A stretch of DNA of 13,842 nt from Pseudomonadota bacterium (lineage in GTDB: Bacteria; Bdellovibrionota; FAC87; UBA2466), in assembly GCA_043767805.1 (NCBI GenBank), contig JAYUGC010000076.1:1-13842 (forward strand). The letters run 5' to 3'. The stretch's first letter is position 1; each line of letters begins with the position of its first letter. Under the pieces are notes generated by a model. It was not told the DNA's origin, searched no databases, and worked only from the letters and a program-made list of their open reading frames with translations. A program made the translations under genes and the position numbers. Shown here one piece after another: positions 87-13,842 of this stretch.

Positions 87-1715
87 CTGAATGGTTACAG
101 TCTTATAAAGAAAAACACTTCGCACAAAATCGCCCTCTACGTCCGGGTATCGACCGAAGAGCAGGCCAATAATCCGGAAGGCTCTATCAAGAGCCAGGAA
201 CAACGGCTCCGACAACACGTCGAGTTTCAAAATCAAAATGGAAACTCAGGGGAAATCGTTGCGACGTTCATTGATCGGGCGCGGTCGGGAAAGGATACGA
301 ATCGGCCGGAACTCCAACGAATGCTTCGAGCCATCCGAAACCGAGAAGTGAGTCTAATCGTTGTCACAGAGCTATCGCGTCTTTCTCGGTCGATCAGAGA
401 CTTCTGTGAGATCTGGGATCTCATGCGCTCGTGCGATTGCGAGTTTCAATCGTTAAGAGAACAGTTCGATACCACCTCCGCCGCTGGCGAAATGATCCTC
501 TACACGATTGCCAATATCGCGCAGTTCGAACGCAAACAAACCTCGGAAAGAACTCGCTTGAACTTCCAGGCTCGCGCGGAACGGGGCCTATTCAATGGTG
601 GAGCAATTCCAGTGGGGTACCGGCGTGATCTAGAGAAAAAAGGCTACCTCCTTATCGACGATACCGAAGCGACTCTTATGCGGGAAATATTCAGTACCTT
701 TCTGAACGAAGGGACTCTCACCAAGACGGGGGTTTCGCTCAACGAAAGAGGCTTCCGTCTTAGTCGAAGACGCGAAGGAAGTGGCTCCAAGTCGCGCTTG
801 GGATATTTCACGGTGGAAAATTTGTGGAAGATATTGACCAATCCCTTGTATGCCGGGCAACGCAGATTCACTGTGAATGGAGAGGAGCGAACCTCAAAGT
901 CATCCTGTGATGCGATCATCGATCCGGCCGCGTTCAAGCGTGTGCAAGATAGTTTAGCTACGAACCATCGTCGGAACAAATTAACTCGCAGAGATCGCTA
1001 TCCCTACACCCTCTCAGGGCGTGTCTTTTGCGCGCAATGCGGCGACCACCTTTCGGGAAAATCCGCTCATGGGAATGGGGGAAAAGTCGGCTATTACGAG
1101 CATGCTTGGGCTACAAAACGTCAGTCTTGCTTAAAAAAGAAGACTTTCACCTGCAAACCCCATCGAGTTCCGGCCAAGCGGCTAGAAATCGCCGTGTGGG
1201 ACGAAATCGGGAAACTTCTCGGTTCGCCGGAGATAGCGCACTCACTTATCAACCAGGCCCATAAGGAACATAAATCAAAGGGCTCGGTCGTCGAAACAGA
1301 CAAACTCCGGGCACGAACACGAGAGGTCGATGAGCAAATTGAGGCATTAGCAGAGCACCTTTCCCAAATCCCGAAGGGAGTCTCTCCGGCGCCGGTCTAT
1401 TCGCAGATGCAAAAGCTCGAAGGGCGGAAGGCGGAAGCGATGAAGGAACTGGACGACCTGGCAAGGGAGAGCACCTGTGGTGACGAGCCGGTTGGTCTAA
1501 AGGACTATCAGGAATTCCTGTCCGCGCTTCAATCCCTTCTAAGCTTCTCGGACTCAGTGGAATTCAAATCCAATCTCATCAAGTGGCTCGTTGCCAAAAT
1601 CGAGGTGTTACCGAGCAGTTTCCGGATGCACTTCTACGTCGGGACCTGCATCCGCGGATTGAATCAGGAATTTAGGCACAAGTCAGGCTGGAGTCTTGTA
1701 TCACCCGTTGGGTGA
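87..1715 (+). CDS. Large serine recombinase (integrase: resolvase catalytic domain + recombinase domain + Zn ribbon + coiled coil); start uncertain, C-terminus probably IS-derived after 1644
   Basis: The frame of ORF 321..1715 is open back to TAA at 45-47 and reads ...HKIALYVRVSTEEQANNPEGSIKSQEQRL...FIDRARSGKDTNRPELQRM, with the catalytic YxRVS motif at 138-152. Later motifs: ELSRLSRS, AQFERKQTSER, GGAIPVGY, ILTNPLYAG, LSGRVFCAQCG (Zn ribbon). There is no in-frame ATG/GTG/TTG before 321; CTG 87 and ATA 105 are candidates. Confidence 0.92.
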   Translation: MNGYSLIKKNTSHKIALYVRVSTEEQANNPEGSIKSQEQRLRQHVEFQNQNGNSGEIVATFIDRARSGKDTNRPELQRMLRAIRNREVSLIVVTELSRLSRSIRDFCEIWDLMRSCDCEFQSLREQFDTTSAAGEMILYTIANIAQFERKQTSERTRLNFQARAERGLFNGGAIPVGYRRDLEKKGYLLIDDTEATLMREIFSTFLNEGTLTKTGVSLNERGFRLSRRREGSGSKSRLGYFTVENLWKILTNPLYAGQRRFTVNGEERTSKSSCDAIIDPAAFKRVQDSLATNHRRNKLTRRDRYPYTLSGRVFCAQCGDHLSGKSAHGNGGKVGYYEHAWATKRQSCLKKKTFTCKPHRVPAKRLEIAVWDEIGKLLGSPEIAHSLINQAHKEHKSKGSVVETDKLRARTREVDEQIEALAEHLSQIPKGVSPAPVYSQMQKLEGRKAEAMKELDDLARESTCGDEPVGLKDYQEFLSALQSLLSFSDSVEFKSNLIKWLVAKIEVLPSSFRMHFYVGTCIRGLNQEFRHKSGWSLVSPVG

Positions 1716-1819
1716 AGCGCCGAGACCCCCTTTCCCCTTTCTTTGATCCGCCGCATCCAGAAAATGAGCTTTTCAAGGATCTGCTCGGATCGTACCCGTA
1801 GTGGAGTTGGGAGGCTGCG

Positions 1820-3205
1820 ATGGTTAGGAAAGAATGGCGTCCACGGCATGTAAAGTTGGTGCCGACGAAGGAAAAGCTGACGGATGCGGTGGGTCTGGGG
1901 TCCATGGTCGAGGTATTCGACCACAGCACTTTATCCAAGGATTTTGCTCGCTGCCTACCACCTCGAACCAGCCCTCGGTCCTTCGGTAGTTATCGGTTGG
2001 GGCTCATTCAGATTTCCAGCTTCCTCTACGGCCACGATTCTCTAGATGACCTAGAGGAGTTCCAAGATGACCCGGCTCTGGAAGCCATCATGCGTGGGGA
2101 GACGGTAGCACCTCGAACGATGGGAGATTTCCTTCGCGATTTTGAGCCCGAGCATCTCGCCCAGCTCAATCGATACCTGGCGCAGATGTCCTATCGAATA
2201 CGCCGACAGATGGGCTCTATTTTGCCCGAGGTCCACCGGCCCGGCCTTGCCCCTCACCTGAGCATAGACTCTACCTCTCATGAGCAATGCGGGCAGAAGA
2301 TGGAAGGAGTAGCGTGGAATTACGAAAATAAATGGTGCCTCAATTCTCAGGTTATCTTCGACGAGCTGGGGCTCAACTACGGAATGCAGCTCAGAGCGGG
2401 CAACACCGGCAATAGCGTGGGTGCGAGAGACCTTATCGATAGCGCCTTCTCGCCCTGGGGCAAGCAGGAGGAGAAGTACCTGAGCGCCGATTCCGCCTAC
2501 TGCAATCAGGACGTGATTCGGACCTGTCTGGAGAGACGCATCCATTTTACGATTACCGCAAACGATGCCACCACCAACTGGCGAGCCCATGTCGGCGAGG
2601 TTTCGAACTGGACCAGCTGGCAGTACTCAATCGAGCAGACAACAAAGGCATTGAACCGAGAAAAACCGCCCCCCAAAATCGAGGTGGGCTCAATGCTTTG
2701 GACCCCGGGATGGGCGGACAATATTCGCTTCAATATCGTCGTAAAGCGAACCTGGGTTGAATCGGAGCAAGCCTCCCTCTTCGGCGACGGACACTGGGAC
2801 TACTACGGCATCGTCATTGCGCTACCCCAACTGAAATTTACCCTTCAACAGGCGGTCGAGTTCCACAACAAGCGGGGAAATGCCGAAAACTTCATCCGAG
2901 AGGAAAAGTACGGTTACGACCTCAAACACTTTCCGTGCCTGAAGCTCGGAGCCAATTACGCCTACGGCCTGTTTGCCATGGTCGCTCACAATATCCTGAG
3001 GTGGGTAGCTATCGTCGAGCGGCCCCACAAACCTCACTTCTCCAAAAAGCTTAGGCGACGATTCATCTTCATTCCGGGAAAGGTCGTCCAACATGCAAGG
3101 TCCCTTTGCATGAAAATACCGGAACGATTCTTCAAGGAGGTGCAACGCCTACGCAAAGCTTGGCAGTTACCGCTTCATCCTGCTCCGGCCTGGGCATCAG
3201 GATAG
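1820..3205 (+). CDS. IS1380-family DDE transposase (DDE_Tnp_1_4-like)
   Basis: 461 aa, preceded by SD-like GGGAGG. Motifs LSIDST (D), SADSAY (D), HNKRGNAENFIRE (E), LKHFPC, ANYAY...AHN, and LRRRFIFIPGKVVQHAR are typical of IS1380 transposases. Confidence 0.92.
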   Translation: MVRKEWRPRHVKLVPTKEKLTDAVGLGSMVEVFDHSTLSKDFARCLPPRTSPRSFGSYRLGLIQISSFLYGHDSLDDLEEFQDDPALEAIMRGETVAPRTMGDFLRDFEPEHLAQLNRYLAQMSYRIRRQMGSILPEVHRPGLAPHLSIDSTSHEQCGQKMEGVAWNYENKWCLNSQVIFDELGLNYGMQLRAGNTGNSVGARDLIDSAFSPWGKQEEKYLSADSAYCNQDVIRTCLERRIHFTITANDATTNWRAHVGEVSNWTSWQYSIEQTTKALNREKPPPKIEVGSMLWTPGWADNIRFNIVVKRTWVESEQASLFGDGHWDYYGIVIALPQLKFTLQQAVEFHNKRGNAENFIREEKYGYDLKHFPCLKLGANYAYGLFAMVAHNILRWVAIVERPHKPHFSKKLRRRFIFIPGKVVQHARSLCMKIPERFFKEVQRLRKAWQLPLHPAPAWASG

Positions 3206-3258
3206 CGCCCGCCGCGCCGGCTGATCTTTGACAACTCGTTCGGTTACCCAGTGGGGTC

Positions 3259-3318
3259 AATTGGACGGGGTCGAGGATTTGAAACTCGCGACAAAGCTAG
3301 CCAACTGACTACACCCAA
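3259..3318 (-). other. Degenerate tRNA-like segment lacking the anticodon arm
   Basis: Four blocks are colinear with the tRNA-His locus at 3523-3601: AATTGG, GGATTTGAA, CGACA, and CTAGCCAACTGA-CTACACCCA (20/22 columns identical to 3580-3601). About 19 nt covering the anticodon arm are absent. Confidence 0.6.
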
Positions 3319-3403
3319 TGGCGGTGGTGCGCCCAAACACACCCCGATGGCCCTGACGAGCAGCACGCCTCGGTAACTCCACTGCTCAAAAAGAGGGTGA
3401 TAC

Positions 3404-3444
3404 AAAAAAAGCGGTTACGCTTCGCCTGGCGAACGTGAACCGCT
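3404..3444 (-). terminator. Intrinsic terminator (minus strand), distal of a tandem pair
   Basis: Long bulged hairpin GCGGTT-ACG-C-TTCGC-CTG-GCGAA-CGT-G-AACCGC (3411-3443). The A7 at 3404-3410 gives a U-tract on the minus strand. Confidence 0.7.
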
Positions 3445-3448
3445 AAAC

Positions 3449-3479
3449 AAAAAAAATCCCACATGCTCTCGCATGCGGG
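3449..3479 (-). terminator. Intrinsic terminator (minus strand), proximal to tRNA-His
   Basis: The minus strand reads CCCGCATGC-GAGA-GCATGTGGG-A-T8: a 9-bp stem with one G-U pair, a GNRA loop and a U-tract. Confidence 0.8.
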
Positions 3480-3525
3480 GTTAACGCGCTTAATCCACCG
3501 ATTTGGGTTCGAATACTATTGTAAT

Positions 3526-3603
3526 TGGGGTGGATGAGGGGATTTGAACCCCCGACACCCAGAGTCACAGTCTGGTGCTCTAACCAACTGAGCTACACCC
3601 ACC
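3526..3603 (-). tRNA. tRNA-His (anticodon GUG) with encoded G-1 and CCA
   Basis: Minus strand GGTGGGTGTAGCTCAGTTGGTTAGAGCACCAGACTGTGACTCTGGGTGTCGGGGGTTCAAATCCCCTCATCCACCCCA. Acceptor stem GTGGGTG/CATCCAC, G-1:C73 pair, anticodon arm CCAGA-CTGTGAC-TCTGG, T loop TTCAAAT. Confidence 0.97.
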
Positions 3604-3738: not shown

Positions 3739-4554
3739 ATGAGCAATCAGCCCTCCGCACTCCGCTTTGAACACCGCGAGGTAGCGGTCATCTTTAGCCT
3801 TTTCATCTTCGTTTCGCTCCTTATGTTCACGGTGGGTATCGTGGTCGGCAAAGGCATCACCCAGGCCAAGCCCGAGGGGTTCGCGGCCACCCTGACCCAA
3901 AACGCCCCGGTTCCCGCTCCTCCTCCGGCCGATCGGTTCGAGCGCCACGGCGGCAGCTCGGTGAACTACCCGACGCAGAACCCGGCCGCGCTCGCAAACC
4001 GCGCCCCGGCCGAAGCCCCCGCCGCTGAAGCTAAAGAGCCTACTGCCCCCGAGCCCTTGAAGCTCATTCCGAAAGTGAAAGTCGCGGCAACCCCGGCGGA
4101 AGTCGCGGCCCACAAAGAGGCCGAAGCCCTCACCAAGAATCCGAAGATCCGCGCGCTGCTCGAAGGCTACGGCGCTCCCGCTGGGAAAGTCGCCGCGAAG
4201 GCCCCGACTCCCGAAGTAAAAAAAGAAATCGCTCCCGAAGAACCGCGCGCGACCGCCTCCGTCCCGCCTCCGGTCGCAGCACCTCCGAGTTTCGCGAACG
4301 GCCCGTTCACGGTGCAAGTGGGTTCCTATCCCACGAAAGCCGACGCCGTCGATCGCATCAATCAATTGACGACGCTTGGTTTCCCCCACGCCTACCTCTC
4401 CGTGAAGAAGTTCGGCGATGGAAAAGAAATTTGGTATCGAGTATGGTTAGGCTATTACCCCGACATGGGAACCGCCAAAAAGAGCGGTGAGTTCCTTCAA
4501 CAGCGGGGTGAGGTGAACAATTATCTCATCCGAAAATCTGATAACCCAGGGTAA
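3739..4554 (+). CDS. SPOR-domain membrane-anchored protein (FtsN/DedD-like architecture)
   Basis: N-terminal TM helix (VAVIFSLFIFVSLLMFTVGIVVG), Pro/Ala-rich linker, C-terminal SPOR motifs FTVQVGSYPTKADA and WYRVWLGYY. Confidence 0.88.
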   Translation: MSNQPSALRFEHREVAVIFSLFIFVSLLMFTVGIVVGKGITQAKPEGFAATLTQNAPVPAPPPADRFERHGGSSVNYPTQNPAALANRAPAEAPAAEAKEPTAPEPLKLIPKVKVAATPAEVAAHKEAEALTKNPKIRALLEGYGAPAGKVAAKAPTPEVKKEIAPEEPRATASVPPPVAAPPSFANGPFTVQVGSYPTKADAVDRINQLTTLGFPHAYLSVKKFGDGKEIWYRVWLGYYPDMGTAKKSGEFLQQRGEVNNYLIRKSDNPG

Positions 4555-4891
4555 GAAGACCGTCAAACCGTGGGGCTACGAGATCCTTTGGGCATTGACC
4601 CGGGACTACGTGGGCAAGATTCTCTTCGTCAAACAAGGCGAAAGTCTCAGCATGCAGTACCACCGCATCAAGGAAGAAACTATGATCGTAGAAAGCGGTC
4701 ACTGCATCCTGCAAACCGGGATGTCGGAAGATTCCCTGGAGACCGTCGATTTCACGGCGGGCAGCGTTTTCCACATCGTACCGGGCCGCATTCACCGGCT
4801 GACCGCGAAAACCGATTGCCGCATCTTCGAAGTCTCCACGCCTCACTTAGACGACGTCGTCCGTCTCCAAGATCGTTATGGCAGATCCTAA
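4523..4891 (+). CDS. Cupin-domain protein (type II mannose-6-phosphate isomerase C-terminal-like); start uncertain
   Basis: The frame of ORF 4595..4891 extends upstream through KPWGYEILWA (KPWG at 4565-4576). Other motifs: SLSMQYHRIKEET, PGRIHRL, EVSTPHLDDVVRLQDRYGR. The frame is bounded by TGA at 4514-4516; ATT 4520 or ATC 4523 follows SD GAGGTGA. Confidence 0.85.
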   Translation: MSSENLITQGKKTVKPWGYEILWALTRDYVGKILFVKQGESLSMQYHRIKEETMIVESGHCILQTGMSEDSLETVDFTAGSVFHIVPGRIHRLTAKTDCRIFEVSTPHLDDVVRLQDRYGRS

Positions 4892-5918
4892 GCTTTTAGC
4901 CGTCATTTTGTCGGGTGGCAGCGGGACTCGCTTCTGGCCTCTGAGCAAGAAGACGCTTCCGAAACAATACCTTTCCCTCTTTGGCGGGCTCACCCTCGTT
5001 CAAGAGACGGCCGATCGCCTGGAAGGCGTGGTCGCCTCCGATCACCTCTACACGATTTCGACCGAGTCGCAGCGGGCGCTCCTGAAATCTCAGCTCCCTC
5101 AAGTAACCAATCATCTTTTCGAGCCAGAAGCGAAAAACACGGCCCCTTGTGTGATGCTCACCGCGGTGGAGCTTATCAATCGTAACGTTCCGCTCGATAC
5201 CGTGCTCACCGTACTTCCGGCGGATCACCATATCGCCGACAAAGGCGCGTTTCGCGCGGCCTTGAAAAAAGCCGCCACCTTCGCGCACCGTCACGACGCG
5301 CTCGTGACCTTCGGCATTCAGCCTGATTGTCCCCACACAGGCTACGGCTACATCGAAGCCGGCGATCCCGCGCCCGGCTCGGACTTAAACCGCGTCCGCC
5401 GCTTTGTCGAAAAGCCGAACGCGCAAAAGGCCGAGCAGTTTCTGCGCTCGGGCAATTTTTATTGGAACAGCGGCATGTTCGTGTGGACGCTGAAGGCCAT
5501 CTCCTCCGCCTTCGAGAAATACCTTGGCGAGGATTGGCGCCGGCTGCGCGCCGCGAAAGACGCCAAAGAGCGCGAGACGGTGTATCGGACTCTCAAAGCC
5601 GCGCCCATCGATACTGCCATTCTCGAAAAAGCGGACAATGTTTACGTTCTGCCGGCGAGTATGGGCTGGAGCGACGTTGGTTCCTGGAACGCGCTCTACG
5701 AACTCACCGGTAAAGACGCGGCGACCAACGCGGTCCTCTCGGGCACAGCGACGTCGCTGGAGAGTAAAGGCTGTCTCGTGTCTCTTCCCTCCGGGAAAAA
5801 GGTCGCGTTAGTCGGCGTCGAAGATCTCATCATCGTCGAGAGCGAAGGCCACTTGCTCATTTGCCGCCGCGATAAAGATCAGCTCGTTCGCGAAGCGTCC
5901 AAAATCCTCGATCCTTGA
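4878..5918 (+). CDS. manC: Mannose-1-phosphate guanylyltransferase
   Basis: Motifs VILSGGSGTRFWPLS...PKQYL, EPEAKNTAP, LPADHHI, TGYGYIE, FVEKPN, WNSGMF, WSDVGSW. At 346 aa it lacks the fused cupin domain. Confidence 0.95.
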   Translation: MADPKLLAVILSGGSGTRFWPLSKKTLPKQYLSLFGGLTLVQETADRLEGVVASDHLYTISTESQRALLKSQLPQVTNHLFEPEAKNTAPCVMLTAVELINRNVPLDTVLTVLPADHHIADKGAFRAALKKAATFAHRHDALVTFGIQPDCPHTGYGYIEAGDPAPGSDLNRVRRFVEKPNAQKAEQFLRSGNFYWNSGMFVWTLKAISSAFEKYLGEDWRRLRAAKDAKERETVYRTLKAAPIDTAILEKADNVYVLPASMGWSDVGSWNALYELTGKDAATNAVLSGTATSLESKGCLVSLPSGKKVALVGVEDLIIVESEGHLLICRRDKDQLVREASKILDP

Positions 5919-5972
5919 ACCGCGCCGATCGCCGGTTGCCGGGCCCCGCCCTTGAGCGGTAGGATCTGATCC

Positions 5973-6431
5973 ATGGCCGTCTCCTTGGACATCCCCTTTA
6001 AAGCGTCTTTGCACAGCGTGCGCTCGCCTGCCGATACGCTGGCGTACCTGTCGAAATGGGAAGAGTCTGTCGGCAAACAGTTTCCGGGACTCAAATCCTT
6101 CCGCCAGACGGACCCCGGTATTTACGCCTGGGAGTTCCAGGAGGTGGGCTATCAAAACATCAAGCTCGCCATCGCCTTCAGCACCCAGATGAGGGCGACG
6201 CCGCCCCTCTCGGCGACGGTTTCGCCGCACTCGGGCCCTCACAAACTATTCCTGCAATGGACGGTCAGTCCAGACGGGAAAGGCGCCAAAGCCGATCTCG
6301 ATTTGAAGTTCAACGTGGAGTTACCCGTTCCGGGCCTCCTCAAAGCCCTCGTGTCCGGCTTCGCCCGCACCGAGCTCACCAAGCTCCTGGAGCGCTACGC
6401 CGCCAATGTGGAAAAAACTCTCTCGGCATAG
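5973..6431 (+). CDS. Hypothetical protein, possible SRPBCC/CoxG-like (START-fold) lipid-binding protein
   Basis: 152 aa, fills the gap in the operon. Beta-rich core and C-terminal LPVPGLLKALV...YAANVEKTL helix pattern resemble CoxG/SRPBCC proteins. The fold assignment is from pattern only. Confidence 0.6.
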   Translation: MAVSLDIPFKASLHSVRSPADTLAYLSKWEESVGKQFPGLKSFRQTDPGIYAWEFQEVGYQNIKLAIAFSTQMRATPPLSATVSPHSGPHKLFLQWTVSPDGKGAKADLDLKFNVELPVPGLLKALVSGFARTELTKLLERYAANVEKTLSA

Positions 6432-7986
6432 GGCGGGGCTGGCGATCCTCGCCGGCTTGGGCATGGTTCTGGCCTTCTCACCGATAAGCCTAGTTCCTTT
6501 CGTCGTGGTGCTGCCCTTTTTCTCGGTTCTCTTGGTGCGTCTTTGCCGCTCTCCCGGAGAGGGGTTTAAGTGGGGCTTTCTCACTTCCTTTCTCATCGTG
6601 CTCGGTGGCTTTTACTGGGTCACGTACGTCATCCACACCTTTGGCTACATGCCGTGGTCGGTGTCCTTCCTCCTCTTCCTGGGCTTCTGCGGTTTCGGCG
6701 CGCTGAACTTTCCGATCTTTTCGGCGCTCGCGACTTATCTGCACCTTCGGTTTCAGCCCGATAAGGCGCAGGGCTTTCCCCGCGAAGCATGGTACGCACT
6801 CGGCATTCCGGCTCTCTTCACGCTGGTGGAGTACTTCGTTCCGAAGCTCTTTCCCTGGTTCGTGGGGCATAGCTTTCACCTGACCTCTTGGCTCAATCAG
6901 ATAGTGGAAATCACCGGCGCGTCGTACCTCACCTTCATGGTTTTTAGCTTGGGTAGCACTTGCGCCCTTCTCGTCGAAAGACGAAAAGGTTACGCGCTCC
7001 TCGCTCTGCCGCTCGCGCTCTTTCTCATTCCGCTAATGTTTAGTCTGTGGCGGCTCTCCGAGCCCGCGCCTCCGAGCAAGACTTTGCGAGTCGCTCTCAT
7101 CCAGGCCAACATCGGCTCTCTCGAAAAAGCCCAGGCCCGGCGAGGCGCGGTGAATCTCATCGAGAGTGTCCTGGAGCGCTACATCACGCTCACCGAGCGC
7201 GCTCTCGCCGAAACGAAGAGGCCCGACCTCATCGTCTGGCCCGAAACAGCGATGCCCTTCTCTTTGGAAAGCGGCGGCCTTTGGGCGCACACCATCCGCA
7301 ATAAAGTCGGGGACTGGAAAGTGCCGCTCATTACCGGCGCCTACTCCGAAAGCGTCACCGATCGAAACCTCGATCACAACGCGGCCTTTCTGCTTCAGCC
7401 TCAAGAAGACGGCACGGTCACCGCTCAGATCTATCCAAAGAACATTCTGCTCGCTTTCGGCGAGTACTTTCCGGGTGGCGAAATCTTTCCGGCGCTCTAT
7501 AAATACTTTCCGCAGGTATCGCATTTCGCGCGCGGCACGCATCAGCGGCCGCTCCTTCTGGCCGACGGCACACCCATCGGCATCACCATCTGCTACGAGG
7601 CCATCGTCCCGGATTTTTTCCGGCGCACCGTCGAGCCGGGCGTGAAAGCGGTCGTCAATCTCACCAACGATTCTTGGTTCGGTCCCACGTCCGAGCCGCA
7701 CCAGCACGGAGCGCTCGCCGTCTTCCGCTCTCTCGAGCACCGCATTCCCTTGGTTCGCGTCACCAATACGGGTGTCTCCTTCACGGTCGATCGCTTGGGA
7801 CGCACCTCGGAAAAGACGCCGGTGTACCAGGAAGCTTACCTCGTCCAAGACATCGAGCTCCCCGACGTGGCGCCTCGCACCATTTACCTGCGGTTCGGAG
7901 ATTGGTTCGTCGGCCTTTGCCTGCTGATTCTGGTAGGCTGTTTATACAGCCTAAAGAGGGATCGCCATGCACCCGTACCTGCTTGA
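6406..7986 (+). CDS. lnt: Apolipoprotein N-acyltransferase
   Basis: Multi-TM N-terminus, IQANI, nitrilase-fold triad motifs VWPETA (E), YPKNILLAFGEYFP (K), ICYEAI (C), NLTNDSWFG, RVTNTGVS, TIYLRFGDW. Confidence 0.96.
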   Translation: MWKKLSRHRAGLAILAGLGMVLAFSPISLVPFVVVLPFFSVLLVRLCRSPGEGFKWGFLTSFLIVLGGFYWVTYVIHTFGYMPWSVSFLLFLGFCGFGALNFPIFSALATYLHLRFQPDKAQGFPREAWYALGIPALFTLVEYFVPKLFPWFVGHSFHLTSWLNQIVEITGASYLTFMVFSLGSTCALLVERRKGYALLALPLALFLIPLMFSLWRLSEPAPPSKTLRVALIQANIGSLEKAQARRGAVNLIESVLERYITLTERALAETKRPDLIVWPETAMPFSLESGGLWAHTIRNKVGDWKVPLITGAYSESVTDRNLDHNAAFLLQPQEDGTVTAQIYPKNILLAFGEYFPGGEIFPALYKYFPQVSHFARGTHQRPLLLADGTPIGITICYEAIVPDFFRRTVEPGVKAVVNLTNDSWFGPTSEPHQHGALAVFRSLEHRIPLVRVTNTGVSFTVDRLGRTSEKTPVYQEAYLVQDIELPDVAPRTIYLRFGDWFVGLCLLILVGCLYSLKRDRHAPVPA

Positions 7987-8773
7987 ATGGCAAATGAACG
8001 GAGAGCTTTACCGGATCCCCTCCTACGGGATTCTCCTCGCCCTGGCCTTTTCCTCCGCGTACTTCGAAGCGCTTCGACGCGCGATGAAAACGGGAGATGG
8101 CCCCGAGCACGTCGAGAACATCTTTATCACCGTCGTGCTGGCCTCCGTGGTCGGAGCCCGTCTCTTCCACGTTCTTTTCGAAGAGCCGTCTTATTACTTG
8201 CGGCACCCGGGCAAAATCATCGCGCTTTGGGAAGGCGGTTACACGTTTTACGGCGCGCTCCTTCTCGCCGCGACCAGCATCTTTCTCTACTGCCGCTGGA
8301 AAAAGATTTCGGGCCTCCCCTACCTGGACATCGCCTCACCGGCGACCGCCTTCGGGCTCTTTCTGGGGCGGATGGGTTGTTTCCTGGCGGGCTGCTGCTG
8401 GGGACGGCCCACGAACTTGCCTTGGGCCGTGGTCTTCAACCACCCCGAGACGTTCTCCTCGGTACGGGGCATTCCCGTGCACCCGACGCAAGTGTACGAG
8501 GCCTTGGGCGGGCTTTGTATTTTCTTTTACTTGAGCTGGCGCTTCAAACGGCGCGCCTACGAAGGGCAAATCTTCTTTCACGGCATCGCTATCTATTCCA
8601 TCCTGCGTTTTGTGGTCGAGAGATTTAGGGGCGACGACTACCGCGGCTTCATCCTAGGCGGACTGGTGAGCTACTCCCAGCTCATCTCGCTAAGTCTCTT
8701 ACCGCTCGCTCTCTACGGGATGTGGCGTTACGGAAAGAAGTCAGTGAACGGAGACGCCGTTAAGTCGCGCTGA
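7967..8773 (+). CDS. lgt: Prolipoprotein diacylglyceryl transferase
   Basis: Motifs SYG, VVGARLFHV, WEGGYTFYG, GRMGCFLAGCCWG, HPTQVYE, RFVVERFRGD, SQLIS. Confidence 0.95.
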   Translation: MHPYLLEWQMNGELYRIPSYGILLALAFSSAYFEALRRAMKTGDGPEHVENIFITVVLASVVGARLFHVLFEEPSYYLRHPGKIIALWEGGYTFYGALLLAATSIFLYCRWKKISGLPYLDIASPATAFGLFLGRMGCFLAGCCWGRPTNLPWAVVFNHPETFSSVRGIPVHPTQVYEALGGLCIFFYLSWRFKRRAYEGQIFFHGIAIYSILRFVVERFRGDDYRGFILGGLVSYSQLISLSLLPLALYGMWRYGKKSVNGDAVKSR

Positions 8774-11239
8774 GTCCGAAGGATCGGACCAGGCGAACGC
8801 GGTTTTCAGAAACTCTCCGTATTCGAACTTCGGACCGGGTCTCAGCGACAAGCGCCGGGACTCGGGGAAATAGCGCACGTCCTGCAAGAAGCCCTTCTTT
8901 AACGACGGCGGTGTCAGATCAAAAAGCTGAAGGCCGGCCTCGGGCTTGCGCAAAGTGTACTTCAGGCCTCGGGCCTTGAAGTACTTCTCAGGCTGAAAAT
9001 TAAACTCGCCGGTGAGGTGCACTTCTTTCGGGGTCCAGTCGGCGGCGGCGATTCCCATGAGCTCACCCCAGCCCTCCATCAAGCTATTGACCAAAGCGCG
9101 CAAATCTTTGCCGGATGCTATCTTTTCGATAAGCGCCACGGCGGAACGATCGAAACGCATGTCGAAGGCATCGTCTCCGATGACGCCGCAGGGCTTCTCG
9201 TCGGCAGACCAATGGGATCCCGAAAAGCCTCGGTACGCCGGCGTCAGATCCGGATAGGAAAGCATGAAAGCGCGCGCCAAAGCGACGGCCACCATCTTTC
9301 GGGGCACGCCATTTCCGCGCGGTCCAACGTTCACCAGAAGGCGCACGACCCGCTCGTTGTTTCTGGCGTCGGCGAGCCGGGCCTTGAACTGCTCGAGGGT
9401 GTAGTCGCGGACTTGCTTGGCCTTTACGATATCCAAAATATGATCGGCCGAAGGACAGCCCCCACACAGGAAACACTGGGCTTCCTTCCAGTTGCGGCCC
9501 AAGCAGTAATCGATTTCGACGAAGGAGCGCGCTCTCAAAACTTCTTGCCAGAGGAAATCCCGCTTCACGCCGGTATCGATCTTCACCCAAGGCTTTTCTT
9601 CCTCGAGCGTAGCGCCCGCGAGCAGCGCCACCGGATCCAAACCGCGCGCTTTCAAGCATTCTTCAAAGCGGTTACGAAACGCCGCCGAAACTTCTCGGTG
9701 GTAGACGAAGCCCGTCGCGTCGACCGCGTCATTCAATGCCTGGCCGATGCGAGGATCGGAAGCACGCACCAGGACTTGTGAAACCCAGTACTCGGGTAAA
9801 TCCGCCGACTCGCGGAACTCAAAGCCCGCGGCGCGCACGACTTTCGCCGTTTGGTTGATGATCTTCTGGTAGCGGGCAATCGAGTGGCCCTCTTCGAACT
9901 CGAGCGGCGTCCAGGGAAACCGCACGAGCGGAGTCATGGAGAAAATCAGACGCGTCGGCACGCCCGCCTCTTCCCGGATCTTTCTGAAGTGGCCGAGCAT
10001 GTCCTGCAAGGCGGCGAAGTCCGCCTCTTCTTCGAGTCCGGTCGCAATCAGGAAGACTTTGAGCTCGCGCGCCTTCGAGCGGAAGATTACCTGCAAGCTC
10101 TTATGGAGCTGATCGTTTTCGAGGTTCTTGTGGAGGTACTTGCGCAGCCGGGGCGAAATTCCCTCGAGCCCGCAAGTGAGACTCGCCTTCTCGATGGCGT
10201 GCTGAAACTCGATCATTTCAGGATCGTGCGCCAAGAGATCGAAGCGCTGGCTTTTCAAGCCCACGTGTTTGAAAAGCGGAACCAAGTCCCAGAGCACCGG
10301 GTAGAAATCCGAGTGCATGTTGAAATTGAAGCTATAGAGATCGACGCTGTCGAGTCCCATGGAGGCCTTCATCTTCAGCGCGACTTTGCGAAGGTTCTCC
10401 CGGTTTCTTTCGCGGTAAGGCTTACGATCCCAGGACTCGGCGCAAAAGCTACAAAAGCACGGACAACCCTCGGAAATCTGAAGGTGACTGCTGCCGATTT
10501 GATCTTCGAGATAATAGACCGGGCCCTTTTCGAGAGCCTCGCTCGCGTTCAAGGACCAGATGAAGCTTTTGCGAGTGGAGCGCGGCGCCTCCGGCTCGAA
10601 GAATCCCGGAATCTCCAAAAGATCTTTTAGAATCTCGGCCTTCTTCTTCCCGGCGCGTTTTCCGTCGCGGGCAATTCGGACGAGCTCTTTAATCGCCTTG
10701 TCGCTCTCGCCCACGAAGATGCCGTCGACCATCGGGTCCGAAGTCCAAAGCACGCTCGAATAAAGCGCGTTCGCACCCCCGAGAATGAGGAGCGGACAAC
10801 CCTCATCCGCCATTCGCTCGCTTTTTTTGAGCGGGAGGCCGCTCTTCTTCAGCATGGTGGGCAGATTGATGAGCTCTTGGACGATGGAGTTCGAAAAGCC
10901 GATGAGATCGTAATCGCGCGGGCCGCGCTTGGTCTGCGTCGCGAGAATCCAAGGCACTTCGCCCGCTTCGAAGAATTCCTGATCCGACCGCGGCGGCAGA
11001 TACGCGAGGTCCGGGTACACCCCTTCCAGACCGGCGGCGAGTTGATAGAGGAGCTGATGCGTGAACGAGTAGCCCGTATCGAAATAAGTGGAGAGGCGGG
11101 TGAAGAGCACGCGGTAGTCGCGAGACGCATACGCTTCCGAAGAGAGGGAATTTATTTCCCCTCCCCTGAGCCACAGCCCCTGCCCGATGAGCTTGGGGTA
11201 ATGGGCTTCGTACCAGTTTTGATAGTCCACGGACGACAT
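8741..11239 (-). CDS. Radical SAM protein (TIGR03960-like, N-terminal B12-binding-like domain), function unknown
   Basis: 832 aa. N-terminal YDLIGFS...ELINLPTML...PLLILGGANA...DGIFVGE, CxxxCxxC motif GCPCFCSFC (10442-10465), RPYRER-like KPYRER, GLEGISPRLR, PFTP-like FPWTP, distal C-x9-CFLCGGC motif. Confidence 0.88.
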   Translation of the reverse strand: MSSVDYQNWYEAHYPKLIGQGLWLRGGEINSLSSEAYASRDYRVLFTRLSTYFDTGYSFTHQLLYQLAAGLEGVYPDLAYLPPRSDQEFFEAGEVPWILATQTKRGPRDYDLIGFSNSIVQELINLPTMLKKSGLPLKKSERMADEGCPLLILGGANALYSSVLWTSDPMVDGIFVGESDKAIKELVRIARDGKRAGKKKAEILKDLLEIPGFFEPEAPRSTRKSFIWSLNASEALEKGPVYYLEDQIGSSHLQISEGCPCFCSFCAESWDRKPYRERNRENLRKVALKMKASMGLDSVDLYSFNFNMHSDFYPVLWDLVPLFKHVGLKSQRFDLLAHDPEMIEFQHAIEKASLTCGLEGISPRLRKYLHKNLENDQLHKSLQVIFRSKARELKVFLIATGLEEEADFAALQDMLGHFRKIREEAGVPTRLIFSMTPLVRFPWTPLEFEEGHSIARYQKIINQTAKVVRAAGFEFRESADLPEYWVSQVLVRASDPRIGQALNDAVDATGFVYHREVSAAFRNRFEECLKARGLDPVALLAGATLEEEKPWVKIDTGVKRDFLWQEVLRARSFVEIDYCLGRNWKEAQCFLCGGCPSADHILDIVKAKQVRDYTLEQFKARLADARNNERVVRLLVNVGPRGNGVPRKMVAVALARAFMLSYPDLTPAYRGFSGSHWSADEKPCGVIGDDAFDMRFDRSAVALIEKIASGKDLRALVNSLMEGWGELMGIAAADWTPKEVHLTGEFNFQPEKYFKARGLKYTLRKPEAGLQLFDLTPPSLKKGFLQDVRYFPESRRLSLRPGPKFEYGEFLKTAFAWSDPSDSARLNGVSVH

Positions 11240-11248
11240 GAGCGCGCC

Positions 11249-11277
11249 ATTAGAGGCGATCCGACGCGCACAATCAA
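11249..11277 (-). promoter_or_regulatory. Possible sigma70-type promoter of the radical SAM gene (very short leader)
   Basis: Minus strand TTGATT, 17 nt, TCTAAT, ending 9 nt before ATG 11239; no SD is visible. The -10 box lacks the conserved second A. Confidence 0.35.
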
Positions 11278-11317
11278 GGGGAACGCGGTAATTCCTAAAG
11301 ATAGCGGGCTTTTAGGG

Positions 11318-12028
11318 CTATTCCTTAAGGAGGAACTTGGCTTCCATCTCGGGTCGGTCGGAAAGCTCTTTAGGAACGAGCTTCAGATCGGACATAGACC
11401 CGGAGTCCTTTTGGGTGAGGCCCAAGGCAAGGGTGAAGTCCCCTTTGAACTCATCCACCATGACTTGCCCCTTGGCGCGATCGAAGTGAAAGCTGAGCGT
11501 TCCTCCGCCCGACGCTTGGCCCAGGCCCGCGAGATTTCTTCCCACTTTCGGCATCGGCACGTCGAGAAAGCTCTTACCGCTTTCGAGGTCCGCCACGGAA
11601 AATTTCTTCACGAGCTTAACCGTGCGGATCGGACCAACGATGATGACCTCGAAGAGGTCGGGCCGATCTTTCATTTTGCGAAACGTGAGCCCATCGAGAG
11701 AAACTCTCAGAGCGGTCCCCTGATAAAGCCGTTTCTTAAACTCGGGATTGGTCTCGTCCCCGTACATGGTGGCGTTGATTTGCCCCGCGATGCGCCTCTG
11801 CATGAAAGTGTCGTTGAAAATATCCACGTAAGGGGCCTCGCCCGCGAATCCCCAAGTCACTTCGTCCTCGCCCTCGAAGACACTTTTGCGTCTTGGGTCC
11901 GCTGTTCCTTCTCGCCGGGCGGTAGTCTCCGCGACCGGGGCCGTTAAAGCGTGATCGTCCGCGCCCGCGGAAACGAACGGCAGCGCCAAAACCAAAACCA
12001 AAACCAGAAGCAGTTCTATGCTTTTCAT
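11318..12028 (-). CDS. Hypothetical secreted protein
   Basis: Internal ATG 12028 of ORF 11318..12136 begins a signal peptide MKSIELLLVLVLVLALPFVSAGA-D. It has SD GGGGA 5 nt upstream and a sigma54 motif just upstream. No family recognised. Confidence 0.75.
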   Translation of the reverse strand: MKSIELLLVLVLVLALPFVSAGADDHALTAPVAETTARREGTADPRRKSVFEGEDEVTWGFAGEAPYVDIFNDTFMQRRIAGQINATMYGDETNPEFKKRLYQGTALRVSLDGLTFRKMKDRPDLFEVIIVGPIRTVKLVKKFSVADLESGKSFLDVPMPKVGRNLAGLGQASGGGTLSFHFDRAKGQVMVDEFKGDFTLALGLTQKDSGSMSDLKLVPKELSDRPEMEAKFLLKE

Positions 12029-12055
12029 TTTCTTCCCCAGTACGAGAGCATTAAC

Positions 12056-12071
12056 TGCAAGGCAGGGACCA
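12056..12071 (-). promoter_or_regulatory. sigma54 (-24/-12) promoter
   Basis: Minus strand TGGTCCCTGCCTTGCA is GG-N10-GC with TTGCA, 27 nt upstream of ATG 12028. Confidence 0.6.
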
Positions 12072-12337
12072 TTTTCAAAAGTCGCCTTTAACCGCATGAA
12101 TACGTCTCCTCGAAGCAAGGTCGAGCCTGCGCGCAAACAAGATCCAGAGAAAATGAGGAACGGCGGAATAAAGGCGGTGCCCGAGATAGTACAGCTGCCT
12201 CAAAAGGATCCAACGAAAGAGACCCCGATTGCCCAAGAGACAAGCAGTGTACAGCCCTTTTCGTCCCTGCTCGCGCCGCCTTCCGCCCTTCCCGCACGCA
12301 GGTCCGTGAGCACTGCGAGTCTTCACCCCCTGAATTC

Positions 12338-12353
12338 TGGCAGTGTCCTTGCA
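12338..12353 (+). promoter_or_regulatory. sigma54 (-24/-12) promoter
   Basis: TGGCAGTGTCCTTGCA is a near-perfect match to TGGCAC-N5-TTGCW, 13 nt upstream of GTG 12367. Confidence 0.72.
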
Positions 12354-12366
12354 AAAACGCTCCTCC

Positions 12367-13173
12367 GTGAAAGTCGGAACGAAGTTAAAACTGGCGTCTG
12401 TGTTTTGTTTGTTTCTCGGATCTCTCAGCGCGCACGCGCAAGACGAAATCACCGCGGAAGCGAAAGATGCGATCTGGGCGAAAGCGGCGCCTCACTATCC
12501 TCTAAAGGATCTTGGGCTTCGCGCTCCCGAAGCGAAGCCAAACGTCGAAGGCGACGAAGTGAACGCTTTCCTGGAAAAGGAAACGACCTGCCGGTTTTAC
12601 GGGTACGGTTCCAATAGCGTCATCGAACGCCGAGTGAAGCCCTCTGATCGTCTGAAGGTCGTCGCCAGCGCCGAGGGAATGCTTTCCGAGTGCCAAACAA
12701 TCAAAAAAGAGCTCGGTCCGAAAGCTTGCAGCTCCATCGAGATCGCCGGACACGCGGACCGGGTTTCGATCGGGCTCTCGCTCTATATCGGAAACGATCG
12801 CTACCCCACAGTATTTGGTATCAATCACCACTCCAGCAAACGCGACGTGGTACCGAACAACTTGGCTCTCATGAAGGAGATCGGCGCGTGCTTGCGGGAA
12901 ATTTCCGAAGACGGAGCGCCCGTCATCTTCAGCACGTGCGGCGCGGACAAAGACAAGCAAACTGGGGAATGGCTTTTTTATCCCGGCAAGCCGACCGCGC
13001 AGGCCGAGCTCGCAAAGCTCATCGACCGCCCGGTGATCAGCGCCATTGGGCCGGCGAGCTCCGATGGTCTCGGCACTTATTCACGCTTCGGCTGGCTGAA
13101 ATCGGAGCCGACGAAAGACATCGCGGTCACTCGCCCCTTGTCCCAACCGACGCGCACGGCCGCGCACCGCTAA
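12367..13173 (+). CDS. Secreted protein with DUF4347/caspase-like (clan CD) His-Cys pattern
   Basis: Signal peptide MKVGTKLKLASVFCLFLGSLSAHA-Q from GTG 12367. Motifs IEIAGHA (His codon 12751), VIFSTCG (Cys codon 12937), ELAKLIDRPVISA. Confidence 0.65.
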   Translation: MKVGTKLKLASVFCLFLGSLSAHAQDEITAEAKDAIWAKAAPHYPLKDLGLRAPEAKPNVEGDEVNAFLEKETTCRFYGYGSNSVIERRVKPSDRLKVVASAEGMLSECQTIKKELGPKACSSIEIAGHADRVSIGLSLYIGNDRYPTVFGINHHSSKRDVVPNNLALMKEIGACLREISEDGAPVIFSTCGADKDKQTGEWLFYPGKPTAQAELAKLIDRPVISAIGPASSDGLGTYSRFGWLKSEPTKDIAVTRPLSQPTRTAAHR

Positions 13174-13181
13174 GTAGGCCG

Positions 13182-13697: not shown

Positions 13698-13704
13698 TCA
13701 ATTA

Positions 13705-13842
<138 letters not shown>

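What the first reader, a model, noticed from the sequence alone, without database searches (positions are those of the whole stretch)
3252..3321. Anticodon-less tRNA mimic in the 3' non-coding end of an IS1380 element inserted next to tRNA-His
Seen: 3259-3317 is colinear with the tRNA-His locus about 260 nt away. AATTGG (CCA end) 3259/3523, GGATTTGAA (T loop) 3275/3540 and CGACA 3289/3553 match exactly, and CTAGCCAACTGA-CTACACCCA 3297-3317 matches 3580-3601 at 20/22. Spacing is kept except for a 19-nt gap that removes the anticodon arm. The T-stem equivalent has a different sequence but still pairs (CGAG/CTCG), and the minus strand ends ...ACCCCGTCCA. The segment can also fold into its own 9-bp stem, GTCAGTTGG/CCAATTGAC (minus strand). 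The IS right end lies only 18 nt from the tRNA 3' end. Inference, three options: (a) an IS-encoded RNA that is antisense to tRNA on the transposase strand and could guide or bias insertion near tRNA genes, (b) a tRNA-mimic processing signal for RNase P/Z, or (c) a decayed tRNA or att relic captured by the element. I know of no such RNA described for IS1380.
Basis: partly seen in the sequence, partly recalled or inferred. Interest (0 to 1): 0.8.

Follow-up and report, generated by a model that had tools for sequence, protein, structure and literature searches.

The report
tRNA-seeking insertion sequence with antisense-tRNA RNA arm
The tRNA-like stretch is real and belongs to a conserved, folded non-coding arm of a jumping gene whose relatives sit beside tRNA genes far more often than chance, so the element may use a tRNA look-alike to find its landing sites.

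Summary
The resemblance is to tRNAs in general, not to tRNA-His in particular.

The segment is not a local duplication relic. It lies inside an IS1380-family element (1645-3507) and travels with homologous elements down to about 30% transposase identity.

It is not a folded tRNA mimic. Rfam's tRNA model does not hit it, and the structure signals lie on the transposase strand. There the tRNA-derived letters are antisense to tRNA and sit in a non-coding arm of about 300 nt. That arm holds a strongly covarying pseudoknot (96% paired, 0 of 500 shuffles as good) and a likely helix that joins the T-loop-like box to a box just after the stop codon.

The lineage sits beside tRNA genes. 20 of 34 right flanks hold a tRNA gene or 3' piece, always on the opposite strand with its 3' end facing the element. 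0 of 28 left flanks do. One copy has inserted beside another copy's own tRNA-like module.

Best reading (0.35): a generic, not programmable, anti-tRNA RNA or DNA module used to home to tRNA genes.

Main rival (0.30): a captured tRNA relic reused as 3'UTR structure.

No transcript data exist.

The parts
1645..3507 (+). IS1380-family insertion sequence, 1863 bp. Its ends read CC.../...GGG.
   Evidence: Nucleotide homology with L009/L022, L010/L023 and L014 runs to these ends. Identical copy pairs elsewhere define the ends as CC(C/T)...GGG. This copy has no target duplication.
1645..1665 (+). Left terminal inverted repeat.
   Evidence: Conserved in the left-end alignment. It matches the reverse complement of the right end at 12 of 21 positions by eye.
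1701..1715 (+). Conserved palindromic hairpin in the 5' non-coding part.
   Evidence: Present in the left-end alignment of 30 loci. By eye the arms change together in L032, L033, L012 and L056.
1820..3205 (+). Transposase gene, 461 aa, intact.
   Evidence: Pfam DDE_Tnp_1_4 at 2e-25. NCBIfam IS1380 family transposase at 188.6 bits, cut-off 180.
3223..3232 (+). 5' strand of proposed helix P1, the conserved box just after the stop codon.
   Evidence: Paired with 3270-3279 in the MFE and the centroid. The outer G-U pair is present in 21 of 22 sequences.
3252..3321 (-). The finding: a tRNA-gene-derived segment without an anticodon arm. It is tRNA-sense on the minus strand and antisense to tRNA on the transposase strand.
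   Evidence: The same place and orientation are hit by the tRNA profile in relatives. Rfam's tRNA model does not hit it.
3270..3279 (+). 3' strand of proposed helix P1. It overlaps the T-loop-like box 3275-3283, whose TTGAA core is invariant.
   Evidence: T, G, A and A are invariant in 22 of 22 sequences.
3320..3343 (+). Hairpin HP4, with two overlapping stems that may form a small pseudoknot.
   Evidence: Stem 2 is 89.6% paired, with 8 G-U/U-G cells against 1 unpaired cell at two pairs. Stem 1 is 70% paired.
3349..3387 (+). Pseudoknot P5a/P5b. In the window, P5a joins 3349-3351 with 3367-3369, and P5b joins 3358-3363 with 3382-3387.
   Evidence: 96.4% of 197 cells are paired against 68.5% in shuffles (0 of 500 as high). 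The covariation score is 0.682 against 0.207. Slid controls give 32-43%.
3389..3403 (+). Conserved purine-rich box that ends in GTGAT.
   Evidence: G, T, G nearly invariant (90% or more) over 20 sequences. Function unknown.
3408..3479 (-). Two minus-strand terminator-like hairpins with T runs, inside the right end. They would stop read-through from the tRNA gene.
   Evidence: By eye, the outer one is kept with changed stem letters in L022, L023 and L014.
3487..3507 (+). Right terminal inverted repeat.
3526..3602 (-). tRNA-His(GTG) gene, with its 3' end facing the element.
   Evidence: ARAGORN. Rfam tRNA at 69.1 bits.
3525..3572 (.). 48-nt stretch covering the tRNA-His 3' half. It behaves like an attachment-site repeat of an integrated island.
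   Evidence: Contigs of runs X1-X3 carry exactly this piece with different DNA on both sides. A second relic, 89% identical, lies on contig C177.
108..1715 (+). Large serine recombinase reading frame. Its last 23 codons come from the left end of the IS.
   Evidence: Pfam Resolvase, Recombinase and Zn_ribbon_recom. The left end of the IS at 1645 lies inside the frame.

Best explanation
The segment is the tRNA-gene-derived core of a conserved non-coding right arm of about 300 nt in an IS1380-family insertion sequence.

The arm works as RNA read on the transposase strand, either as the transposase mRNA's 3' part or as a piece cut from it. In that RNA the tRNA-derived letters are antisense to tRNA. 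The T-arm part pairs with a box just behind the stop codon (helix P1). The invariant UUGAA core and the D-arm-like stretch follow, and then come a hairpin and a strongly covarying pseudoknot.

The lineage lands beside tRNA genes with its right end towards the tRNA's 3' end. I think the most likely use of the module is to find tRNA genes in general. The anti-tRNA stretch, kept alike to the universal letters of tRNAs, would tether the transposase-RNA complex to tRNA genes, to their exposed sense strand or to nascent tRNA. The element would then insert in the safe zone behind the gene. It is a generic address, not a programmable guide.

Shown: the module travels with the IS, its structure is plus-strand, copies are enriched beside tRNA genes in one orientation, and one copy inserted beside a module.

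Inferred: that the RNA is made, that it binds the transposase, and that it pairs with tRNA genes or transcripts.
For: 1. The segment travels with the IS. Homology runs through the whole 3' arm in L009/L022, L010/L023 and L014, and the same architecture is seen in relatives of 37-58% identity.

2. A tRNA profile hits the first 200 nt after the stop codon in 25 of 31 elements. In 24 of them the top hit is on the minus strand. 16 of 31 score above 6 bits. ORF controls give 7 hits in 143 windows, maximum 4.2 bits.

3. The letters kept best are those universal in tRNAs. The TTGAA core is invariant in 22 of 22 sequences, and distant relatives (about 30% identity) keep a D-arm-like block.

4. The structure is on the transposase strand.
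- Pseudoknot P5a/P5b: 96.4% paired, 0 of 500 shuffles as high.
- HP4 stem 2: 8 G-U/U-G cells against 1 unpaired cell at two pairs.
- P1: the outer G-U pair is present in 21 of 22 sequences, with U-G in 4 to 11 sequences at four inner pairs. P1 is in the MFE of all 16 sequences folded, by my reading of the dot-brackets, with the inner part different in L031.
- Window MFE is -63.1 (z -1.55) on the plus strand and -57.9 (z +0.23) on the minus strand.

5. Targeting.
- tRNA-profile hits of 10 bits or more are found in 17 of 32 right flanks. tRNA-Cys in L043 (ARAGORN) makes 18. All are on the minus strand.
- 0 of 28 left flanks have such a hit.
- Two further loci found with the RNA model alone both have a minus-strand tRNA 40 and 92 nt from the end.
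- Ten different tRNA identities are involved, and identical copies lie beside different tRNAs.
- With 40 tRNA genes in 4.52 Mb, a 1.25-kb flank would hold one about 1% of the time (my arithmetic).

6. Self-targeting. In L056/L059 one copy sits inside another copy's 3' arm, 13 nt from that copy's tRNA-like module, with a 6-bp duplication. Three right ends are stacked before tRNA-Asp.

7. The transposase has no extra domain: DDE_Tnp_1_4 covers residues 9-437 of 461.
Against: - No transcript data exist, because no RNA run holds the sequence, so RNA production is not shown.
- The distance from the IS end to the tRNA is not fixed. It is 17, 18, 36, 40, 40, 41, 62, 88, 92, 118 and 151 nt, then 463-901 nt. 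14 of 34 right flanks show no tRNA.
- The copies with clean 6-bp duplications are not close to a tRNA. L058 is 555 nt away, and L044 has none in its flank.
- In predicted folds the T-loop-like box is mostly paired (mean unpaired 0.28 against 0.44 background), so half of it is not free to pair with a target.
- P1's support from shuffles is weak: 76.6% paired against 74.5%, 32 of 500 as high.
- The segment does not co-vary with the neighbouring tRNA.
- The side and the orientation could partly come from selection: safe sites behind tRNA genes, and terminators in the right end that face the tRNA.
- No DDE insertion sequence is known to use an RNA for target choice (recalled; nothing found in searches).
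- Related elements are not independent samples.
Confidence: 0.35

Rival explanations
1. Captured relic reused as structure. An ancestor that already landed behind tRNA genes extended its right boundary over the neighbouring tRNA gene, as IS1380-family elements such as ISEcp1 do with flanking DNA (recalled). The antisense tRNA copy then became part of a folded 3'UTR that controls transposase mRNA stability or expression. Target choice is made by the protein alone and does not use the module.
For: - The internal layout copies the external one. The box after the stop codon is followed about 22 nt later by the tRNA-like 3' end in minus orientation, just as the present right end is followed 17-18 nt later by a real tRNA.
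- Part of the T-loop-like box is explained by pairing in P1.
- The D-arm-like part has decayed unevenly between clades, and some clades keep an anticodon-arm-like hairpin while others lost it.
- The segment does not follow the neighbouring tRNA.
Against: - The invariant letters lie outside P1 and coincide with the universal tRNA letters.
- A pseudoknotted RNA of about 180 nt is more elaborate than a 3' stabiliser needs.
- It leaves unexplained how a transposase with no extra domain finds ten kinds of tRNA gene.
- The origin by capture was not tested.
Confidence: 0.3
2. DNA-level site. The tRNA-like box is a subterminal binding site of the transposase on double-stranded DNA. tRNA genes resemble it, so they act as pseudo-ends that attract insertion, as some insertion sequences favour sequences like their own ends (recalled).
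For: - The right end, the internal box and the tRNA T-loop region all carry GATTTG in the same direction in the window.
- One copy inserted beside another copy's module.
- Left flanks of two clean insertions carry end-like GATC strings by eye.
Against: - The shared string is only 6 nt and is not kept in clades whose ends read differently.
- The many G-U pairs and the covariation show selection on RNA, not on duplex DNA.
- No binding data exist.
Confidence: 0.15
3. tRNA sensor. The plus-strand RNA pairs with tRNAs or pre-tRNAs to tune transposase output to the cell's state. The position beside tRNA genes has another cause.
For: The letters are complementary to the universal tRNA letters. The RNA is complex and folded.
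Against: Folded, modified tRNAs offer little free T-loop or D-loop for pairing (established knowledge). It does not use the strong link to tRNA genes. No data support it.
Confidence: 0.08
4. Minus-strand tRNA mimic that RNase P or RNase Z cuts, for example to process read-through from the tRNA gene.
For: - On the minus strand the T-loop-like box is mostly unpaired (0.59 against 0.42).
- A short acceptor-like helix changes on both sides in the five closest elements by eye.
- The 9-bp stem is in the minus-strand MFE.
Against: - Rfam's tRNA model gives no hit in the window or in 16 loci. ARAGORN finds nothing there.
- The T-stem is not kept by eye.
- The covarying helices carry G-U pairs that would be A-C on this strand.
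- Two terminators lie between the tRNA gene and the segment.
- The minus-strand fold is no better than shuffles (z +0.23).
Confidence: 0.04
5. Chance likeness, or a local duplication or attachment-site relic of this one locus.
For: A real attachment-type repeat of the tRNA-His 3' half exists at this locus.
Against: The segment lies inside the IS and recurs in homologous elements beside other tRNAs in other genomes. It also holds 5'-half letters, which attachment relics lack.
Confidence: 0.02

Closest known systems
IS1380 family insertion sequences (IS1380, ISEcp1)
   Same: The transposase passes the NCBIfam IS1380 model and Pfam DDE_Tnp_1_4. The element has terminal inverted repeats that start with CC, and short target duplications are seen in relatives.
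   Different: It has a conserved, folded 3' arm of about 300 nt with a tRNA-derived module. It shows a strong preference for the 3' side of tRNA genes. The duplications here are 6 bp, against 4-5 bp recalled for the family. I found no report of either feature (searches; listings and abstracts only).
Bridge RNA of IS110 and seekRNA of IS1111 (recalled; IS110 bridge RNAs are named in an abstract listed)
   Same: A folded non-coding RNA is encoded in the non-coding end of an insertion sequence, and it carries letters that resemble the insertion target.
   Different: Those elements use a DEDD recombinase, and their RNA loops match the target and donor exactly and change with them. Here the enzyme is a DDE transposase, the match is to generic tRNA letters, and it does not follow the neighbouring tRNA. 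Insertion distance varies. RNA use is not shown.
Type V-K CRISPR-associated transposons homing to tRNA genes (recalled)
   Same: A transposon lies behind a tRNA gene in a fixed orientation and carries near its right end a short copy of tRNA-gene sequence used as the address.
   Different: No Cas12k, TnsB/C or CRISPR repeat is seen in the IS, which encodes only one DDE transposase.
tRNA-gene-targeting retroelements of eukaryotes (Ty3, Ty1, Dictyostelium TRE; recalled)
   Same: They choose tRNA genes of all kinds as safe landing zones, with a window of positions rather than one exact site.
   Different: Those are retroelements tethered by protein contacts with the RNA polymerase III machinery. 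This is a bacterial DNA element with a tRNA-derived nucleic-acid module.
Attachment sites of integrases that use tRNA genes
   Same: A partial tRNA copy lies next to an intact tRNA gene. Such a repeat does exist at this locus (3525-3572).
   Different: Attachment relics hold only the 3' part, match the neighbouring tRNA and stay at island borders. The segment also holds 5'-half letters, is generic and moves with the IS.

Membership tests
IS1380 family insertion sequence | The transposase matches the family model above its curated cut-off. | tested here: met
   NCBIfam NF033539 at 188.6 bits, cut-off 180. Pfam DDE_Tnp_1_4 at 2e-25 over residues 9-437.
IS1380 family insertion sequence | Terminal inverted repeats bound the element. 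| tested here: met
   The ends are defined by identical copy pairs. Relatives match at 12-15 of 16 positions. The window's ends match at 12 of 21 by eye.
IS1380 family insertion sequence | A short direct target duplication flanks the element. | tested here: inconclusive
   6 of 6 in L044, L058 and the nested L056/L059 copy, and 5 of 6 in L036. The window's copy and several others have none.
tRNA or tRNA-like RNA (Rfam RF00005) | The covariance model of the cloverleaf matches. | tested here: not met
   No hit on 3252-3321 at E up to 10. No hit on the internal segments of 16 related loci at E up to 1. ARAGORN finds none.
tRNA or tRNA-like RNA (Rfam RF00005) | Acceptor and T stems are kept by compensating changes. 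| tested here: inconclusive
   By eye, a 4-5 bp acceptor-like helix changes on both sides in five close elements. The T-stem is not kept in L028, L033, L040 or L027.
Bridge RNA / seekRNA systems (IS110, IS1111) | A DEDD (RuvC-like) recombinase is present. | tested here: not met
   The only protein is a DDE_Tnp_1_4 transposase.
Bridge RNA / seekRNA systems (IS110, IS1111) | The guide letters change with the target. | tested here: not met
   Identical copies lie beside tRNA-Pro and tRNA-His. Copies 99.7% identical lie beside tRNA-Met and tRNA-His. The window's segment scores about the same against His, Pro and Gly.
Bridge RNA / seekRNA systems (IS110, IS1111) | A folded non-coding RNA is transcribed from the element's end. 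| not testable with these tools
   Structure is supported by covariation. No RNA run holds the sequence.
Attachment-site relic of a tRNA-integrating island | The relic stays at one locus, holds the 3' part only, and matches the neighbouring tRNA. | tested here: not met
   The segment recurs inside homologous elements elsewhere. It holds D-arm and 5' acceptor letters. It is generic.
CRISPR-associated transposon with a homing guide | Cas effector and Tn7-like genes are present in the element. | tested here: not met
   The element of 1863 bp holds one long frame, the DDE transposase.

The most novel reading that the evidence does not exclude
A DDE insertion sequence of the IS1380 family uses its own folded, pseudoknotted RNA as a generic address label. 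The RNA carries an antisense copy of the universal tRNA letters. It brings the transposase to tRNA genes of any identity by pairing with the gene's exposed sense strand or with nascent tRNA. This would be the first RNA-assisted target choice by a classical DDE insertion sequence, and a bacterial counterpart of the tRNA-gene homing of Ty3-type elements.
Probability: 0.3. Interest if true: 0.92.

Novelty: new variant of a known kind. Interest (0 to 1): 0.74.

Why it matters
How insertion sequences with a plain DDE transposase choose safe landing sites is mostly unknown. RNA-assisted choice is known only for other enzyme classes.

This lineage offers three features that can be tested together with one cloned element and one target plasmid:
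- a clear preference for the 3' side of tRNA genes;
- a conserved pseudoknotted RNA in the element's arm;
- a tRNA-derived stretch inside that RNA.

If the module sets the address, it would be a new, compact way of aiming DNA insertion at a generic safe harbour. If it does not, the arm is still an undescribed structured RNA class tied to a transposase. It would also be a clear example of an insertion sequence that swallowed its target.

Tried and rejected
- Expression: no listed run that holds the stretch is on record as RNA.
- Laying contigs of four DNA runs gave no joint, empty site or alternative insertion.
- Empty-site comparison: in the same-genus genome G001, homology starts only 4 nt before the tRNA's 3' end and the other side is unrelated. 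The insertion site could not be reconstructed.
- My idea that the recombinase frame once continued into the right flank is unsupported, because this copy has no target duplication.
- A gapped local search for inverted repeats gave meaningless long alignments. It was replaced by ungapped matching.
- RNAalifold on only five close sequences gave similar energies on both strands and missed the family-wide pseudoknot. Its suggestion that the box after the stop codon pairs with the GTGAT box at the far end does not hold across the family by eye.
- The RNA model R1 found no copy without a transposase context in the own genome (1 hit) or in 150 further genomes of the phylum. 6 of 151 genomes were hit, the own one included, and all hits were at IS right ends.
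- Rfam gave no family for the arm.
- No conserved small reading frame lies in the arm.
- A test of whether the loop of the pseudoknot resembles, and changes with, the element's right end was not done.
- Earlier notes of this scan hold nothing on this place or sequence.

Full report
**What is at the locus.**
The window starts inside a large serine recombinase frame (108-1715; Pfam Resolvase, Recombinase, Zn_ribbon_recom). Next comes a 461-aa transposase gene (1820-3205). It matches Pfam DDE_Tnp_1_4 and the NCBIfam IS1380 family model above its cut-off (188.6 against 180 bits). ARAGORN finds one tRNA gene, tRNA-His(GTG) at 3526-3602 on the minus strand.

The collinear likeness of 3252-3321 to tRNAs is beyond chance. 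Its best local alignment against the genome's 40 tRNA genes scores 41. None of 718 control windows reaches that, and 1 of 300 shuffles does. It is not specific to tRNA-His, since His scores 41, Pro 39 and Gly 38.

**The segment belongs to the insertion sequence.**
Only one full copy exists in this draft genome. Protein searches in relatives and public contigs gave homologous elements. In the closest ones (81, 75 and 80% amino-acid identity) nucleotide homology runs from a left end near 1645, through the whole 3' non-coding part, to ...GGG at 3507.

Identical or near-identical copy pairs in other genomes break off exactly at CC(C/T)... and ...GGG. Three insertions carry perfect 6-bp target duplications (L044, L058 and a nested copy in L056/L059) and one has 5 of 6. 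The window's own copy has no duplication, so one of its flanks has probably been exchanged.

**The module is old and family-wide.**
The arm after the stop codon has the same order of blocks in relatives of 37-58% identity:
- a box just after the stop;
- a variable hairpin;
- the T-arm-like box with a following CGAC;
- a D-arm-like stretch that ends in CTAC;
- a hairpin (HP4);
- a second structured block;
- a purine-rich box that ends in GTGAT;
- minus-strand terminators;
- the right end.

A profile of 30 tRNAs of this genome hits the first 200 nt after the stop in 25 of 31 elements. In 24 of them the top hit is on the minus strand, and 16 of 31 score above 6 bits. ORF control windows give 7 hits in 143, at most 4.2 bits, on mixed strands. 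The window itself gives no profile hit.

Some clades keep an anticodon-arm-like hairpin where the window's clade has a gap. The most distant relatives (about 30% identity) keep only the D-arm and 5'-acceptor-like part.

**It is not a folded tRNA.**
Rfam's tRNA model does not hit the segment in the window (E up to 10) or in 16 related loci (E up to 1). By eye the T-stem is not kept in several relatives.

**The structure is on the transposase strand.**
On an alignment of 20 arms, two crossing helices form a pseudoknot. It has 96.4% of 197 cells paired (shuffles 68.5%, 0 of 500 as high), a covariation score of 0.682 against 0.207, and slid controls of 32-43%.

A hairpin before it is 89.6% paired. 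At two of its pairs there are 8 G-U or U-G cells against one unpaired cell. Such pairs would be A-C mismatches on the other strand.

Folding 16 arms singly puts the box after the stop codon in a helix (P1) with the 5' half of the T-loop-like box in all 16, by my reading, with a different inner part in L031. The tool count gives 76.6% paired, with the outer pair G-U in 21 of 22 sequences and many U-G. The shuffle control is weak here (74.5%, 32 of 500) because both strands are conserved.

The TTGAA core just outside P1 is invariant in 22 of 22. The window's arm folds better on the plus strand (-63.1 kcal/mol, z -1.55) than on the minus strand (-57.9, z +0.23). No Rfam family matches the arm.

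**The lineage sits beside tRNA genes.**
- ARAGORN on 42 oriented loci finds a tRNA gene in 16. All are downstream of the transposase gene and on the opposite strand.
- I dropped six loci before the profile scan: one duplicate (L025), four with a truncated gene or contig end (L030, L035, L053, L011), and one whose 3' part is replaced (L038).
- After that, the scan finds hits of 10 bits or more in 17 of 32 right flanks, all on the minus strand. Two of them, L014 and L046, are 3' pieces only. 0 of 28 left flanks have such a hit.
- tRNA-Cys in L043 (ARAGORN only) makes 18.
- A covariance model of the arm found two more right ends at contig starts. Both are followed by a minus-strand tRNA, Ala at 40 nt and His at 92 nt. 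The total is 20 of 34.
- Ten identities are involved: His, Met, Asn, Leu, Asp, Lys, Pro, Cys, Gly, Ala.
- With 40 tRNA genes in 4.52 Mb, a flank of this size should hold one about 1% of the time (my arithmetic).
- Distances from the end to the tRNA are 17 and 18 nt in the two closest relatives, then 36, 40, 40, 41, 62, 88, 92, 118 and 151 nt. In four cases they are 463-901 nt. In one of those, L041, the element lies inside a tyrosine integrase gene beside tRNA-Met (seen).
- Related elements are not independent samples, but copies of one element at different tRNAs are separate insertions.

**The module itself attracts insertion.**
In one genome, a copy lies inside another copy's arm, 13 nt from that copy's tRNA-like module, with a 6-bp duplication. 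A third, truncated right end begins inside the module's D-arm-like part. The stack ends 61 nt before tRNA-Asp.

**How I read it.**
The segment is a tRNA-gene-derived module. Its likely origin is that an ancestor took in its neighbouring target, since the internal layout repeats the external one. It is now part of a folded plus-strand RNA.

Its best-kept letters are the universal tRNA letters, the elements land beside tRNA genes of all kinds, and the transposase has no extra domain. I therefore favour a role in finding tRNA genes (0.35).

The main rival is a reused relic with protein-only targeting (0.30). Then come a DNA-level binding site (0.15), a tRNA sensor (0.08), and a minus-strand tRNA mimic (0.04).

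Against my reading:
- the distance to the tRNA varies;
- 14 of 34 flanks have no tRNA;
- the copies with clean duplications are not close to a tRNA;
- half of the T-loop-like box is paired in the predicted folds;
- no transcript data exist;
- no DDE insertion sequence is known to work this way.

**Literature.**
Five full-text searches (I saw listings and abstracts only) gave nothing on IS1380 elements with a tRNA-like module, a structured RNA or a tRNA-gene preference. What I say about ISEcp1 capture, bridge RNAs beyond the listed abstract, type V-K transposons, Ty3 and the usual 4-5 bp duplication is recalled. Two unchecked notes from earlier in this scan describe other tRNA-linked elements. 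I did not test them.

Noticed in passing
window 105-140: The serine recombinase frame has no ATG, GTG or TTG between the stop at 105-107 and the catalytic-serine motif. The first listed start, at 321, would cut off that motif. Its last 23 codons come from the IS. The gene may be dead or may use an unusual start.
   Followed up: partly
window 3525-3572; L003 1501-1546 (G000 contig C177): The 3' half of tRNA-His behaves as an attachment repeat. Contigs of three runs hold exactly these 48 nt with other DNA on both sides. Contig C177 holds an 89% copy next to a small transposase fragment. An integrated island probably ends at this tRNA.
   Followed up: partly
L024 about 1815-1884 (whole contig of 1884 nt): The right end is followed after 6 nt by a left end, and the contig is one element long. 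This is either a tandem pair or a circular form with a spacer of duplication length.
   Followed up: no
L059 2890-3900 and L056 (same contig): Three right arms are stacked head to tail before tRNA-Asp. One full copy is nested in another copy's arm with a 6-bp duplication.
   Followed up: yes
L041 (oriented) flanks of the IS: The element splits a tyrosine integrase gene that lies next to tRNA-Met. In L055 the left flank is the start of another transposase gene that looked IS256-like by eye. tRNA-side junkyards are reused by several mobile elements.
   Followed up: no
window 1768-1784 and 3222-3238: A box in the 5' non-coding part is an imperfect inverted repeat of the box just after the stop codon (about 12 of 15 by eye). 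The two bracket the transposase gene. This could be long-range RNA pairing or old protein-binding sites.
   Followed up: no
window 3371-3392 and 3487-3507: The 3' half of the pseudoknot loop and stem resembles the element's right end by eye. In L013 the likeness was strong enough to fool my pattern search.
   Followed up: no
window 3389-3403 and 1701-1715: The purine-rich box ending in GTGAT is complementary to one arm of the conserved left-end hairpin (11 nt perfect in the window, pair I10). It also looks like a strong ribosome-binding-type box, with no start codon behind it.
   Followed up: no
L072 about 295-309 and L074 about 441-455: In this genome the element's right end reads differently (it ends in GCGCG, not GGG), yet the copies still lie 40 and 92 nt from tRNA genes.
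   Followed up: partly
window 3739-13842: The rest of the window was not studied beyond a SPOR-domain protein (3739-4554) and a nucleotidyl transferase with a mannose-phosphate-type C-terminal domain (4878-5918).
   Followed up: no
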